From: Microcoleus sp.
GTDB lineage: Bacteria > Cyanobacteriota > Cyanobacteriia > Cyanobacteriales > Microcoleaceae
Length of the DNA stretch: 64,000 nt
Direction: 5' to 3'
Assembly (NCBI GenBank): GCA_042408215.1
Contig: JAYFMW010000005.1
Location: forward strand, 256,001 to 320,000
Shown here: positions 39,947-45,059 of the stretch, one piece after another
How positions within the stretch are numbered: the first letter of the stretch is position 1
Layout: each line of letters begins with the position of its first letter
Notes under the pieces: generated by a model
What the model was told of the DNA's origin: nothing
Databases searched by the model: none
The model's input: the letters and a program-made list of their open reading frames with translations, nothing else
Translations under genes and position numbers: made by a program

Positions 39947-40447
39947 CTATTCTTTTTCCTCCTTAACTTCCTGAATCACAAAAACCGAGCAAGATGCGTG
40001 GTGAACTACGTAATTGCTAACGCTGCCGAGAAAAGCTTCTGCCAGCCCCGTGCGGCCGCGCCTCCCCAATACTATTAAATCAGCGCCCCAATTTTGGGAA
40101 TATTCACAGATACAATGCCCCGGATCGCCGTCGATTTTAGAATCAAATTCTACCTGTAATCCCTGCTTTGCTGCTGCGTCGCAGTAATTTTGCAGCAAAC
40201 CCTCAGCCTGTTTTATATCCCTTTCCATCCGCAAACTTTGAGCTTGATAAGCTTGATCCATTAACTGCACATTCATGCCCAAATCTACCGGAATTGGCAC
40301 TGCTGACTCGCCCAGGGAGTGGATAGTAACGCAGTGAAATAGCATCACAGAAGCTTGATTAGCCAGAGCTAACTCTAAAGTTTGGCTGAAGACGCGGTGG
40401 CCCAGTTCCGAATCATCTACAGCAGCGAAAATTTTCTTAAAACTCAC
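39947..40447 (-). CDS. universal stress protein
   Basis: GGAGGT RBS and GTG at 40447; FKKIFAAVD...ADLIVLGRRG...LGSVSNYVVHHA. Confidence 0.92.
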   Translation of the reverse strand: MSFKKIFAAVDDSELGHRVFSQTLELALANQASVMLFHCVTIHSLGESAVPIPVDLGMNVQLMDQAYQAQSLRMERDIKQAEGLLQNYCDAAAKQGLQVEFDSKIDGDPGHCICEYSQNWGADLIVLGRRGRTGLAEAFLGSVSNYVVHHASCSVFVIQEVKEEKE

Positions 40448-40590
40448 AGTTTTACCTCCGTAAAAAATATTAAAAACAGTTAACAGAGAGTGCTTTTGGA
40501 ACTTTGACCGTCGTTCATCTATCTTCCCCCTTGGAGACTCCCACTGTACCTGTACCCTGGTCAGTGGCGAGAGGAAAAGGGGGGCAAGGT

Positions 40591-41862
40591 TTATGCTGCA
40601 TACGAATAACCATCCTTTCGGTGAACAACTGAACAATATTTGTGACTAATTCCCGATACCAATTCGGATGCGGAAATATTGAATGAACCACTCGTTCTAA
40701 CGGCAACACGCCCAACGTATTTACCAATTTTTTTGCCGGAGGTTACAATCGCTTTAACGATATCTCCCGTTTGAAAGCCTTTGACAAATTTAAACCTGGG
40801 GACATAGCAAGATGGAAATCCAAACTTGTCAGTGCGGCACATTTGACCTGTCCCATGCCCAGTCGCTTTAATTAACAATGGCTTGTTTGTCACAACTTTC
40901 AGCGACTCAACTTTTCCAACACAGGCTGCATCTAACCAGTGAGTTTTAGCTAAATTCAATCGAGTGCGGTTGAACTTTGTTAGGCCACCACTGCCAGTAT
41001 AAACTGGTAATCCAGTCATGCGGAGTCGATTAAATAATGCCCAACGAGTCGAATTGACTGCTGCTGCATCTTTTAACGGACGATGAGCTTGAGATAGAAT
41101 CCGCTTCAAAATCTCTGGCTTTTTAGAGAGGAATTGCTCAATACTTTGAGTCCCTTTCCGAGTATTACAATTTTCGCAAGCAAGGCAAAGGTTAGAAATG
41201 CGATCGCTGCCACCTTTAGCTTTGGGATGAATATGTTCAATTTGCAAAGGTACATTTTCAACACCGCAATAAGCGCATTTCCTGTCCCATTTGTTCAATA
41301 GATATTCCCGAACTTCGTAGCCAGCTAATTCTCCTTGCTGATATTCAACGCCTGAGATTTCGGGATTTTCTAGTTGTTGTAAGTCAAATCTTACTAATTC
41401 TTGAACAATTGAACCAATGGGTGCGAGTCGGATAAATTTGTTAACCCAACTTAGGGTTGTTTCTACTCGATGTTGTAAGGATGGTGCTAACCAACCCTTT
41501 TGTCGGGTGCGATTGAAAAACCTCGCTTGACGATAACGAGTGTGACGATTTCTCCTACCTCTACGCAATGAACGGCGAGACTCCAAACTGGCTTTAATTG
41601 TTTGACCTCGGTGAGTTAATTCTGCACCAAAAATTACGTCCTCTCCTTGCACTAATGCGATTCCCGTAGTCTTAGAGCCTGGGTCTATTTTAAGAGTGAT
41701 TGATTTTTGGGTTGCTGTCACCTCTACTTTGAGAATTAGCGTGAACGGATACCTTTTGAAAACAGCAGCTTTGCCATTGTTTAGCAATTTACGAGCCAAT
41801 CCCGGTCGGATTGGATTGAGCGGTTGTTTTCTGGTATCAAGTACAAAAACAAAATTAGACAT
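40591..41862 (-). CDS. iscB: RNA-guided endonuclease IscB
   Basis: PLNP (PLMP domain), RuvC-I IDPGSKTTG, Arg-rich bridge helix, RuvC-II ELVRFD, HNH CAYC..EHIHPK..N..C..CN, RuvC-III HWLDA. Confidence 0.95.
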   Translation of the reverse strand: MSNFVFVLDTRKQPLNPIRPGLARKLLNNGKAAVFKRYPFTLILKVEVTATQKSITLKIDPGSKTTGIALVQGEDVIFGAELTHRGQTIKASLESRRSLRRGRRNRHTRYRQARFFNRTRQKGWLAPSLQHRVETTLSWVNKFIRLAPIGSIVQELVRFDLQQLENPEISGVEYQQGELAGYEVREYLLNKWDRKCAYCGVENVPLQIEHIHPKAKGGSDRISNLCLACENCNTRKGTQSIEQFLSKKPEILKRILSQAHRPLKDAAAVNSTRWALFNRLRMTGLPVYTGSGGLTKFNRTRLNLAKTHWLDAACVGKVESLKVVTNKPLLIKATGHGTGQMCRTDKFGFPSCYVPRFKFVKGFQTGDIVKAIVTSGKKIGKYVGRVAVRTSGSFNISASELVSGISHKYCSVVHRKDGYSYAA

Positions 41863-41865
41863 TTC

Positions 41866-42108
41866 AGTCCTCCCTTGCGGGGTAATGTTTGCTTCGTCAA
41901 TGTTTAAGGTCGGTAACTATATTAAAAGCACTGGCTTAACCCTTACACCTGTTTAACTTTTAATTTCTAGAGCAGAAAACTAGCACGCATTTTCTGGTAG
42001 GTACTTTAACGCTTACCTTAAACGTAGTGGCGAACCACTGAGACTGGTCAACTTTGCTTTTTCAAGCCCCCACTAGATCGGTACTCCGATTAGTGGTGGG
42101 TGGTTGAC
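41866..42108 (-). ncRNA. IscB omegaRNA (HEARO-like) scaffold
   Basis: GTCAAC-CACCC..hairpin..GGGGCTTG..GTTGACCAG..CTACGTT..ATGCGTGCTAG..CTCT..TTAAACAG..CAGTG..AACATTGACGAAG..ATTACCC, directly upstream of iscB. Confidence 0.88.
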
Positions 42109-42118
42109 TCCTGAAAGA

Positions 42119-42230
42119 GTGACATCTCCTACACCAACCACAAGCTGTCACCATTGGTGTAGGCTTCGCAACCAATCCGGCTATCGCTTAGGAGGCGTTG
42201 CGCTTTAAGAACGGGATGACCCACCGCTCT
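42119..42230 (-). ncRNA. TnpB right end / omegaRNA (reRNA) scaffold
   Basis: GCGGTGGGTCATCCCG...GAAGCCTACACC..GGTGTAGGAGATGTCAC terminus, same architecture as the end at 23840. Confidence 0.7.
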
Positions 42231-43362
42231 ATTTTTTATATTTATTGCTCCATTGTGGTCACGGTCAAGACTACACCCACAATCAGGGTAATCGTGCCAT
42301 CTTTCCGGCAGTTGTTTAGGTACTTTCTCGCCACAATTAGAGCAATCTTGTGAAGTATTATAGGCCCTTACTGCGACTACCAACTTTCCCAGCATTTGCG
42401 GCTTTATTTGTTAGGATCGAGAGCAAGCTTGACCACCCAGCATCCAACACAGATTTAGCCAATCTGGTACGAGCAAGTCCTTTGACGTTTAACTCTTCAT
42501 GAGCAACTACGTCATATTTTGACAGCAGGTAATTAGCTGTCTTGAAATGGAAATCTTTCCTTTTATCGGCAACTTTCTTGTGTTTCCTACCAAGTTGTTT
42601 AACCGTTTTTTGCCTGCGGTTGCTTCCTTTTTTACGTCGTGAAACACGCTTTTGGATTACCCCTAGGCGTTTTTGTGCTTTACGGTAATATTGAGGAATA
42701 GCAACGGTTTCACCTTCAGAAGTTGTCAATAATTCCTTCAGCCCAACATCAATTCCAGTAATTTTATTTGGGTGAAAATCTGGCTGAATTTCAGGAACAG
42801 TTGAATCTTCCAAACTGAGAGTTGCATAGTACCCATCAGCTTTTTTGGTGATAGAAACGGTTTTGACTTTAAATCCATCAGGTATGGAGCGGTGTAAAAC
42901 AACCTTAACTTTCCCGAACATCTGTAAGTTAATCAGATTGCCTTGTAAGCACCCGTCCTCGATCTGAGGATAGGTAAAGGTGCGGTAACGACTGCGTGCT
43001 TTAAATCGAGGTCTACCGCTACGCTTTCCATTGCTATCACCTTTCAGGAAACGGTCAAAAGTTACCTTGACTCGTTTAACTACATCTTGGAGAACTTGAG
43101 AGTAAATCTCGGCATACCAAGGATGAGTTTTTTTGAGCTGAGGTAGCGTCTTTTTTTGGCTATAGTAATCTGGATTGTCTCGCAGTTCAGGCAAGTAACA
43201 AAGCAGAGGACAAGCATTAATAGGAGAACGGTTTTGTTCGTACCAGTTAAATCTATCCGCCAACACATAGTGATACTGAGCGCATAGCATCGACAGCCAT
43301 CTGTCAAGCTCAATCGCTTGTAACTTTGTTGGACGTAATCGATACTGATAAGAGGTTCTCAT
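42129..43362 (-). pseudogene. tnpB: TnpB nuclease with one frameshift near 42390
   Basis: [36 protein letters not shown]...LDRDHNGAINI continues in a second frame. Confidence 0.9.
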
Positions 43363-43390
43363 TGACCAGACCCTATGGTTCGTGCTATAA

Positions 43391-43852
43391 TTGACACTCC
43401 CCGGCATGAATGCGCGGGGATTCTTGGTTCACCGATACACCTTTAAATTGCCTATCCTTTCGGCATTACTTAAACCAAAAACCCGTTCAATAGAACTAAG
43501 TTTCGAGCCTAAGTTAGACAATCCCAGAGGGCTGATCTCCCCAAGCGATAGAGAGTTTCCTCTCTTGTTTCCCTGTGCCCCACGGTACGTTTAATATTCA
43601 AGATTTTAGTTTTCTGGTCTGGGTTACGTTAGTTACCCTAGCTATGTTTTTCGTGGTGTTCGCCACCCACTAACCATTATTATTTCCCGACCAGTCGTTT
43701 GAGCTTGGTGCGCACTGTGTATCGGCGGTTATTCTACCTGTAGTATTACTCTATTGTACCATACTGTTCAATTAATTTTCGGAAACCTTGAACCGGAAAT
43801 TTAGATCGTTAAAGCCGTCCTAAAAGGACGGGGCTTTAGACCTAATTTACTG
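43391..43852 (-). mobile_element. non-coding IS200/IS605 derivative (PATE-like) retaining both ends and an omegaRNA-like scaffold
   Basis: TTAC|CAGTAAATTAGGTCTAAAGCCCCGTCCTTTTAGGACGGCTT left end; GAATCCCCGCGCATTCATGCCGGGGAGTGTCAA right end; no long ORF. Confidence 0.82.
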
Positions 43853-44348
43853 GTAAGTTAACTCACTGTCAACCCACTGTCAACCCACTGTCAATGCCAT
43901 TTCAAAAAAACCATAAACTCGACCCAAAGAAACGGTTAAAACGCCATTGAGACAAGGAAATAATCGGATTCAAAGGCCTTGTCGGGCAAAAATAGAAAAT
44001 TAAAACTGTTCCTGACTGGCAAGAACGTCTCAGGGAATTTGTCGATAAATTACGCTCAATGTACCGCATTTCGACTAGGCTCAATGCACCACATTTCGAC
44101 TAGGCTCAATGCACCGCCTCATCATCGTGAACAACTATGAGTCATTTTAGAAAAGTATTTGCCTATTTAGTCAAGCTCCACCCTTAAGGGTTTGACAGTA
44201 GCCACTCTATTTCTAATATTATATCCTAGAATCTTGCGAGCGCTGGTTTTTTTTTCGCTAACCCACCCAAATTAATGATTCTGGGTGGGGAATGGGGCCC
44301 GCGATGTAGTTCTCAATTTCCCATAATCCCTCAGACTTTTACACTTTT

Positions 44349-45059
44349 TTACACTAGGAGGCGCTCCAGGGCGTGCAGGTCAGGAATGCACAGAACGTCA
44401 CGATCGCGCTGAATACTTCCTTTTTTTTCCAGCTTGCTGAGCACCCGCGTGACGGTTTCCCGAGCTAGCCCGCTGAGGCTGCTCAATTCTCGGTGTGGCA
44501 AGTTGGGAATTTCTGTACCTCCTGTTGACATAATTTTGCCTTGCCCCTCGGCCAAAAACAAGAGAATATCTGCTACTCGCGAGGTGCTATCCGACTCTCG
44601 CAAGCGCAGGCGACGGTTGACTTGCCGCAGCCGACGGGCCATCAGTTGAGCCAGCCGAATGCCTGCGAGGGGCTCGGTGTGAATTAGCTGTACAAAATCT
44701 TGAGATGGCATATTGCCGATCAGCGTCGGAGCTAGGGTGATGACATCTGTCGATCGCGGTGCTTCTTCGATCGCAGCCATTTCGCCAAACAGTTCTCCTT
44801 TGCCCAAAATATTGAGCGTTACTTCTTTTCCATCTAGGTTGTAGGTGCGAATTTTCACCCAACCGTCCAATATGAAATACACTGATGTTCCCCAGTCATT
44901 TTCCAGCAAAATCACTTGATTTGGCGGATGGCTGCGGGTAACGATGTGGACAGTCGCTCTCTCGATTACAGGAGCGGGCAAGCCCGCAAAAAAAGGAGTA
45001 GATACTATCAATTGATTTATATTGGAATTCGGATCTCGGGTGTTAAAGCGGTCTTCCAT
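44349..45059 (-). CDS. Crp/Fnr family transcriptional regulator
   Basis: LFGEMA..PRSTDV cNMP domain; LARETVTRVL HTH. Confidence 0.93.
   Translation of the reverse strand: MEDRFNTRDPNSNINQLIVSTPFFAGLPAPVIERATVHIVTRSHPPNQVILLENDWGTSVYFILDGWVKIRTYNLDGKEVTLNILGKGELFGEMAAIEEAPRSTDVITLAPTLIGNMPSQDFVQLIHTEPLAGIRLAQLMARRLRQVNRRLRLRESDSTSRVADILLFLAEGQGKIMSTGGTEIPNLPHRELSSLSGLARETVTRVLSKLEKKGSIQRDRDVLCIPDLHALERLLV

What the first reader, a model, noticed from the sequence alone, without database searches (positions are those of the whole stretch)
40514..43900. Stack of three different OMEGA (IS200/IS605) elements whose predicted guides are built from each other
Seen: three co-oriented elements on the minus strand. 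They are a protein-less mini-element (43391-43852), a tnpB element ending in TCAC at 42119, and an intact iscB element starting GTCAAC at 42108. Only 10 bp (42109-42118) separate the last two. Established: TnpB guides derive from DNA 3' of the right end, and IscB guides from DNA 5' of the omegaRNA scaffold. Inference: the same 10 nt (UCUUUCAGGA) lie in both guides. The TnpB guide would run on into the IscB scaffold (UCUUUCAGGA-GUCAAC), and the IscB guide would include the TnpB right end (GAUGUCAC-UCUUUCAGGA). One transcript could therefore be a fused TnpB-scaffold/guide/IscB-scaffold RNA, suggesting interplay or competition between RNA-guided transposons.
Basis: partly seen in the sequence, partly recalled or inferred. 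Interest (0 to 1): 0.8.

Follow-up and report, generated by a model that had tools for sequence, protein, structure and literature searches.

The report
Four guide-RNA transposons piled up
Four known kinds of small jumping genes landed one after another in the same gap between two genes; two of them ended up 10 bases apart, so their predicted guide RNAs overlap, but one is dead and this looks like a crowded landing spot rather than a new joint system.

Summary
The junction is real. Empty alleles in two close relatives read TTAG|TCTTTCAGGA|ATGAA. The 10 bp are host DNA between a TnpB-type and an IscB-type target motif, so the predicted guides do overlap. A public contig holds the tnpB end without iscB, so tnpB most likely came first.

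The anatomy needs correcting. The mini-element sits inside the tnpB element and splits its promoter. That element has lost its left end and is frameshifted. A fourth, truncated element lies at 44175. Only iscB is intact.

A TnpB-type right end lies within 40 nt upstream of 4 of 69 HEARO starts in this genome, against about 0.15 expected. Across 78 relatives I verified one case, and none GTDB-wide.

Best reading: serial insertion at shared gene-leader hot spots, plus the published need of IscB guide RNAs for outside transcription. IscB would then guard only the tnpB-bearing allele. No RNA evidence for a fused guide was obtained. The scan noted the same geometry before at another site of this genome (e1-7816774).

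The parts
44349..45059 (-). Host Crp/Fnr-family regulator gene (left flank)
   Evidence: Pfam cNMP_binding and HTH_Crp_2; syntenic with the usp gene in many genus relatives
44119..44175 (-). Truncated left end of a fourth mobile element, inserted after GGAG (44179-44176); 'IS607-like' is my recalled label
   Evidence: 84-87% identical over 50-61 bp to the start of five ~400-bp repeats in G000, all preceded by GGAG or AGAG. Absent from the empty alleles. In L055 the same end precedes a tnpB; NCBIfam does not settle the family
44053..44116 (-). About three tandem copies of a ~25-bp repeat at the deletion junction
   Evidence: Sequence; a 25-nt shorter form occurs in contigs of runs X14 and X15
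43894..44052 (+). Pseudogene (two stops) of a ~59-aa ORF carried divergently inside the tnpB element
   Evidence: Intact in relatives L045-L051 between the TTAG left end and tnpB; divergent tnpB within 400 bp in 33 of 63 metagenome loci with enough flank; no NCBIfam family
43853..43872 (-). -35 box (TTGACA) and spacer of the tnpB promoter, ending in the mini-element's target motif TTAC
   Evidence: Aligns with the uninterrupted promoter in L049 and L050; now pairs with a TAAATT box inside the mini-element. Promoter function is inferred
43391..43852 (-). Protein-less IS605-type mini-element (PATE-like; TTAC|...TCAA), nested inside the tnpB element
   Evidence: Copies at C6 (98.7%), C17 (97.7%) and C22 (91.9%), each after TTAC and ending TCAA
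42129..43362 (-). tnpB pseudogene: N-terminal frame 43362-42358, C-terminal frame 42395-42129
   Evidence: Pfam OrfB_IS605, HTH_OrfB_IS605 and Cas12f1-like_TNB in two frames; one extra base compared with intact relatives
42119..42167 (-). tnpB right-end hairpin ending TCAC (3' end of the predicted TnpB omegaRNA scaffold)
   Evidence: Identical end in the C6 copy; folds as a hairpin, -18.2 kcal/mol
42109..42118 (-). 10 bp of ancestral host DNA (TCTTTCAGGA): the TAM-proximal part of both predicted guides
   Evidence: Lies between TTAG and ATGAA in the empty alleles of G005 and G008
41882..42108 (-). HEARO / IscB omegaRNA scaffold; 5' end of the iscB element
   Evidence: Rfam RF02033, 139.5 bits; 12 family copies diverge just before GTCAA/GTAAA
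40591..41862 (-). Intact iscB (423 aa, RuvC plus HNH)
   Evidence: NF040563 469 bits; Pfam RRXRR and HNH; 96.7% identical open copy at C17
40514..40518 (-). IscB target-adjacent motif ATGAA (host DNA); the element ends at 40519
   Evidence: 10 of 12 copies listed end ...AG|ATGA(A/C); host homology resumes at 40518
39947..40447 (-). Host universal stress protein gene (right flank)
   Evidence: Pfam Usp

Best explanation
Independent, serial insertions of known IS200/IS605-superfamily elements into one intergenic spacer of a genome overloaded with them. Steps: (1) a TnpB-only element entered 3' of TTAG (shown); (2) an ISC/iscB element later entered 5' of the ATGA 10 bp away (site shown; order inferred); (3) a PATE-like mini-element entered TTAC inside the tnpB promoter (shown); (4) a fourth element entered after GGAG, and a deletion removed most of it, the host DNA and the tnpB left end (shown by comparison). 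TnpA in trans moves them (inferred). Read-through from the tnpB side probably supplies the outside transcription that the IscB omegaRNA needs (inferred). The guide would be GAUGUCAC-UCUUUCAGGA, aimed at the iscB-less, tnpB-bearing allele: ordinary homing. The dead tnpB element only lends sequence and perhaps a promoter. Such tail-to-head pairs are over-represented in this genome because both element types reuse the same gene-leader hot spots, and IscB elements favour co-oriented transcribed sites.
For: Empty allele with both target motifs. Singly occupied allele: one X15 contig joins 40518 to 42109, skipping exactly 1590 bp, with 40 letters on the tnpB side. tnpB is decayed while iscB has 95-96% identical copies. 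The genome holds 70 HEARO matches, about 246 right ends and 20 Y1-transposase matches; its right-end load is 140 against a genus median of 15.5. 31 of 52 HEARO 3' ends sit at in-frame host start codons, against 5% of all ATGA (crude gene calls). Two other adjacent pairs (G000 C1; G046 C87) have a HEARO of a different subtype and no TnpB-type element at the same site in G006, so those sites draw HEARO anyway. Co-orientation bias upstream of iscB is published (Meers preprint, section 5). The IscB guide matches the fully empty allele at only 10 contiguous nt, below the 11-nt threshold reported for an engineered IscB (PMC13095665).
Against: The enrichment in G000 (4 of 69; 3 of 68 without this locus, P about 5e-4, or 3e-3 if the null is doubled) exceeds my start-codon-matched null. 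It is specific to this configuration: 0 of 69, 0 of 52, 0 of 52 and 0 of 246 for the other four tested that involve HEARO ends or two right ends. A shared-hot-spot excess is inferred from only two sites. The X15 contig could also come from excision of iscB. Read-through transcription is not shown.
Confidence: 0.72

Rival explanations
1. Promoter trap: iscB/HEARO elements are actively favoured (at insertion, or by homing-driven retention) just downstream of TnpB-type right ends, because the omegaRNA transcript running out of those ends gives them a ready 5' guide. One OMEGA family parasitises the other's transcription.
For: Configuration-specific excess in G000. Here tnpB appears to precede iscB. 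IscB needs outside transcription. One verified case in the genus against 0.14 expected under the null and 2.5 under the G000 rate scaled by load.
Against: At two other pairs a HEARO occurs without the TnpB-type element. Most pairs involve protein-less minis. Only 1 true case among at least 1079 HEARO matches in 78 relatives, and 0 of 10 hits in the GTDB-wide scan. It is also partly a special case of the published bias.
Confidence: 0.17
2. One reading: one fused TnpB-scaffold/guide/IscB-scaffold RNA is functional and couples or sets off competition between the two nucleases at this locus.
For: Geometry and boundaries hold. One X1 contig spans the junction, 41807-42319, with 23 differences. The predicted TnpB guide still matches the fully empty site at 14 of its first 16 nt, because GTCAAC resembles ATGAAC. 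Standalone omegaRNAs can work in trans (PMC10691335).
Against: TnpB is frameshifted, the left end and TTAG are gone, and all four close family copies in G000 share the frameshift. The best open-frame TnpB is 57% identical to an intact relative. No TTAG+guide or guide+ATGA target of 10 nt or more exists in G000. The gap differs at every pair (10, 20, 22, 27, 35 nt), as expected for chance spacing. A 16-nt guide for each nuclease cannot be cut from one molecule without damaging the other scaffold (inference).
Confidence: 0.06
3. Pure chance in an overloaded genome, with no site preference at all; the apparent excess is a small-number or post-hoc effect.
For: The counts are small, the locus was chosen for this feature, and the replication in relatives is compatible with the null (P of at least one case 0.13).
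Against: 3 of 68 remain without this locus against about 0.15 expected, plus one more by eye. Sites are visibly reused across genomes.
Confidence: 0.05

Closest known systems
ISC transposons with N|ATGA target (ISC2-1_HM, ISC1-1_MA; Kapitonov, Makarova and Koonin, PMC4810608; passages read)
   Same: 5'-GT(CA) terminus, insertion upstream of ATGA without target duplication, non-autonomous, about 1.6 kb, IscB with HNH inside RuvC (their ISC2 type).
   Different: Nothing structural. The neighbour is a TnpB right end 10 bp upstream; the passages read mention insertions into other repeats but not this geometry.
ISGst1-5 TnpB/IscB/PATE network of Geobacillus stearothermophilus (Meers et al., bioRxiv 10.1101/2023.03.14.532601; passages and section 5 read)
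   Same: Many non-autonomous tnpB, iscB and protein-less elements in one genome; guides taken from flanking DNA; nucleases aimed at the donor joint; IscB omegaRNA depends on outside, co-oriented transcription.
   Different: Here the upstream co-oriented unit is itself a (dead) TnpB element, so the guides overlap. The tnpB element carries a small divergent ORF in place of tnpA.
IS1341-type / IS605B TnpB-only elements and PATEs (names)
   Same: TnpB alone or no gene, hairpin ends, 4-nt target motif, omegaRNA at the right end.
   Different: The window copy is frameshifted, has lost its left end, and is interrupted by a PATE in its promoter.

Membership tests
ISC/IscB OMEGA element | IscB protein with RuvC and inserted HNH, frame open | tested here: met
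   NF040563 469 bits against cut-off 175; RRXRR and HNH; 423 aa without stops
ISC/IscB OMEGA element | omegaRNA (HEARO) at the element end upstream of iscB | tested here: met
   RF02033 139.5 bits; its start equals the element boundary
ISC/IscB OMEGA element | Insertion next to a fixed motif without target duplication | tested here: met
   N|ATGA in the empty allele and in 52 of 69 HEARO elements whose 3' end could be placed (the end pattern required ATGA)
ISC/IscB OMEGA element | RNA-guided cleavage of the donor joint | not testable with these tools
   Needs an interference or cleavage assay
IS605-type TnpB-only element | tnpB gene and right-end hairpin with terminal TCAC; target motif 5' of the left end | tested here: met
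   TTAG precedes the left end in family copies and the site in the empty allele
IS605-type TnpB-only element | Intact left end and open tnpB (mobile, active copy) | tested here: not met
   Left end deleted and frameshift near 42395: a relic of the family, not a working member
PATE-like mini-element | Both ends, no protein, multiple near-identical copies, fixed target motif | tested here: met
   TTAC|...TCAA copies at 92-99%
IS607 family (fragment 44175-44119) | Serine-recombinase tnpA and IS607-type TnpB | tested here: inconclusive
   The linked TnpB in L055 scores 280 on IS200_TnpB and 215 on IS607_TnpB, both under their cut-offs; no tnpA was looked for. The label is recalled
Composite TnpB+IscB unit (proposed) | The pair moves or is conserved together | tested here: not met
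   The other 11 iscB copies listed have unrelated 5' flanks; the other tnpB copies have unrelated 3' flanks; empty and singly occupied alleles exist

The most novel reading that the evidence does not exclude
TnpB-type right ends act as launch pads for IscB elements. Transcripts leaving a TnpB omegaRNA supply the outside promoter and 5' guide that IscB needs, so iscB/HEARO elements are preferentially inserted or retained just behind them. The resulting single transcript can load both a Cas12-ancestor and a Cas9-ancestor on overlapping guides: the TnpB guide keeps 14 of 16 matches to the fully empty site, while IscB guards only the TnpB-occupied allele. That would be a one-way dependence of one RNA-guided transposon on another.
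Probability: 0.15. Interest if true: 0.62.

Novelty: new member of a known kind. Interest (0 to 1): 0.3.

Why it matters
As it stands this is a well-resolved case study, not a new system. It has empty, singly occupied and fully occupied alleles for one site. That makes one open point directly testable: whether neighbouring OMEGA elements feed or disarm each other's guides. It also gives a natural allele-specific IscB guide that should cut only the tnpB-bearing allele. If the launch-pad reading held in closed genomes, it would add a rule for where Cas9-ancestor elements can become active and show a dependence between the two OMEGA families.

Tried and rejected
Composite element: rejected; the flanks of other copies are unrelated. 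A second HEARO-like RNA at 44195-43990, suspected by eye: no Rfam match at E up to 5; the stretch is the small-ORF pseudogene. Programmed frameshift in tnpB: considered because the same extra base occurs in 4 of 4 G000 copies, 2 other genomes and 3 metagenome loci; not accepted, since most relatives are open and the shift needed is +1. Phylum pattern scan, 400 other genomes: 5 hits outside G000; none was HEARO. First genus pattern: 9 hits outside G000, none HEARO; it missed a real case because the start motif was too narrow, so it was widened (16 hits, 1 HEARO). Control gap 31-61: 10 hits outside G000, none HEARO. GTDB-wide scan: 10 hits, none HEARO; the pattern was narrow and built on this genome's motifs. 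Flanks of 156 HEARO matches from other genomes (best-scoring ones and the better-assembled genomes; 10 sub-cut-off loci and one G000 locus left out): 0 by regex, 1 by eye. By-eye candidates at C14:66098 and C6:362224 were dropped after reading their context; C9:15165 (gap 6, different end type) and C17:185218 (gap about 73) were not counted. Self-targets of the guides in G000: none of 10 nt or more. RNA runs X14 and X15: contigs only; none of the listed pieces bridges 42119-42108 into HEARO, which shows nothing either way (312 pieces not shown). Exact junction motif in 5 relatives: one exact hit, unrelated context. Fold of the small ORF: pLDDT 77, two helices, no PDB match; ESM Atlas gave only unnamed clusters, with an RHH family at 0.88 as a lead.
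Full report
1. Observation. The window is G000:C5:256001-320000. On the minus strand, between a Crp-family gene and a universal stress protein gene, lie a HEARO RNA at 42108-41882 (Rfam 139.5 bits) and an open 423-aa iscB (NF040563, 469 bits). A tnpB in two frames has a right-end hairpin finishing TCAC at 42119, and a protein-less element lies at 43852-43391. Twelve iscB-family copies in the genome diverge just before GTCAA/GTAAA, and 10 of the 12 end ...AG|ATGA. Copies of the tnpB family begin after TTAG and diverge after TCAC. The mini-element's copies follow TTAC and end TCAA.

2. Empty and singly occupied alleles. Two close relatives (G005, G008; 96-98% flank identity) read ...GGGTGGAG, about 90 bp, CTTGC TTAG TCTTTCAGGA ATGAA CGACGG.... 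In public runs (contigs only), X14 holds the fully empty allele. One X15 contig joins 40518 to 42109, skipping exactly the 1590-bp iscB element, with 40 letters on the far side (the 10 bp and 30 bp of the tnpB end). One X1 contig spans the double junction with 23 differences. With the decay of tnpB and the 95-96% identity among iscB copies, the simplest order is tnpB first, iscB later. Excision of iscB would give the same contig.

3. Corrected anatomy. In relatives the tnpB element runs TTAG | left-end hairpin, a divergent 59-aa ORF, a shared promoter, tnpB, right end (L045-L050). In the window, 44052-43853 is that interior, with the small ORF broken by two stops. The mini-element sits at TTAC between the -35 and -10 boxes, so it is nested, not stacked. 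The left end, TTAG and the host DNA up to 44176 are gone. In their place is a 57-bp end of a fourth element family that inserts after GGAG or AGAG, followed by a short tandem repeat. 'IS607-like' for it is my recalled label; NCBIfam did not support it over IS200/IS605. tnpB has one extra base near 42395, shared by all four close copies in G000. The best open-frame TnpB in the genome is 57% identical to an intact relative. Twenty Y1-transposase matches, most without stops, could act in trans.

4. What the guides would do. TnpB guides follow the right end (PMC10278001, passages). IscB guides precede the scaffold and need transcription from outside the element, and genes upstream of iscB are biased to the same orientation (Meers preprint, section 5 read whole). 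The predicted IscB guide ends GATGTCAC-TCTTTCAGGA and matches perfectly the allele seen in X15. Against the fully empty allele it has only 10 contiguous matches; for an engineered IscB, 10 nt or fewer gave little to no interference (PMC13095665, passages). The predicted TnpB guide matches the fully empty site at 14 of its first 16 nt, with mismatches at 11 and 13; for ISDra2 the first 12 or so positions decide specificity (PMC13639567, review passages). But this element cannot excise and has no close live nuclease in the genome. Neither guide has a target of 10 nt or more in G000. Each guide thus points at the allele lacking its own element, which is the ordinary homing rule. No RNA evidence was obtained.

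5. Is the adjacency more than chance? G000 has 70 HEARO matches, of which I used 69. It has 246 right ends by regex (216 TCAA with 11 decoys; 30 strict TCAC with 0 decoys). A co-oriented right end lies within 40 nt upstream of 4 of 69 HEARO starts (10, 20, 22, 35 nt), and a fifth was seen by eye (27 nt). The other configurations gave 0 of 69 (left end facing a HEARO start), 0 of 52 and 0 of 52 (ends facing HEARO 3' ends), 0 of 246 (right end to right end) and 1 of 246 (right end to left end). For unoccupied ATGA sites the rate is 0.27% at start codons and 0.13% in non-coding DNA (crude gene calls), giving about 0.15 expected. Without this locus it is 3 of 68, P about 5e-4, or 3e-3 with the null doubled.

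6. Replication was weak. The 78 genus relatives hold at least 1079 HEARO matches but far fewer right ends (median 15.5 against 140). A widened pattern gave 16 hits outside G000, of which 1 is HEARO (G046, gap 27). The 31-61 control gave 10 hits and no HEARO. Load-scaled expectations are 2.5 at the G000 rate and 0.14 under the null, so neither is excluded. 156 fetched flanks gave that same single case. The phylum draw of 400 genomes and the GTDB-wide scan gave no verified case; both patterns were narrow, and short-read assemblies tend to break between adjacent repeats. At two adjacent pairs, G006 carries a HEARO of another subtype at the same site with no TnpB-type element, so these are reused sites. 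Also, 31 of 52 placed HEARO ends abut host start codons. Both points favour shared gene-leader hot spots.

7. Mechanism. Shown: four independent insertions, their target motifs, the nesting, the deletion and the dead tnpB. Inferred: the order, mobilisation by TnpA in trans, read-through from the tnpB side into HEARO, and IscB homing on the tnpB-bearing allele only. I put this at 0.72, the launch-pad reading at 0.17, a working fused RNA at 0.06 and pure chance at 0.05.

8. Comparison with what is known. The iscB element fits the ISC transposons with N|ATGA targets (PMC4810608, passages). The whole picture matches the ISGst network. Standalone omegaRNAs acting in trans are described (PMC10691335, passages). 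Five literature searches listed no paper whose title or abstract start describes overlapping TnpB and IscB guides. The library lacks most subscription papers, I read no supplements, and those of the Meers preprint could bear on this. The scan had already noted the same geometry at another site of this genome (e1-7816774, which by its 20-nt gap is my C26 case) and the start-codon preference; these are AI notes, and I had made both counts before reading them.

9. Verdict. The elements are new members of known kinds. The modest remaining interest is the configuration-specific excess in this genome and a ready set of natural alleles for testing it. Interest 0.3.

Noticed in passing
window 43894-44052 (+); intact in L045-L051, L277-L349: A conserved ~59-aa ORF of no known family lies divergently from tnpB, where tnpA would be, in 33 of 63 metagenome loci with enough flank. 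Two predicted helices after a possible strand suggest a ribbon-helix-helix repressor of the shared promoter, but the fold search found no match.
   Followed up: partly
window about 42395; G000 C6:271794, C20:215756, C20:690167; L009, L046, L277, L280, L283: The same one-base frameshift (GGGAAAG in place of GGTTTG or GGAAAG) occurs in otherwise diverged tnpB copies (80-93% DNA identity) from several genomes; unexplained (conversion or a mutation hot spot).
   Followed up: partly
G000, 52 HEARO elements with a placed 3' end: 31 of 52 sit directly before an in-frame host start codon (ATGA), so their guides come from gene leaders. Earlier scan notes say the same.
   Followed up: partly
G000 C26:114568, C1:90990, C8:83951, C5:595844; G046 C87 (L245): Further TnpB-type right ends 20, 22, 35, 27 and 27 nt upstream of HEARO starts; C26 and C1 share one upstream mini-element family.
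   Followed up: yes
G000 C9:15165: A HEARO starts 6 nt after what looks by eye like the right end of a different (IS607-like, recalled label) TnpB relic.
   Followed up: no
window 43362-43391 (+): A strong sigma-70-like match (11 of 12, extended -10) that once faced the small ORF now points into the mini-element, antisense to its omegaRNA end.
   Followed up: no
G000, several HEARO mini-elements (e.g. C6:921565, C17:782387, C10:102291): Their far ends are the reverse complement of the left-end hairpin used by the TTAC/TTAT TnpB-type minis, so one TnpA probably moves both.
   Followed up: no
L034 (G004:C56), L035 (G019:C29): The crp-usp spacer is also enlarged in two other genomes (about 590 and 1670 bp against about 30 bp in most); L034 carries a left-end-like hairpin.
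   Followed up: no
G000 C17:576663 and C17:577287: Two iscB elements lie back to back, 623 bp apart.
   Followed up: no
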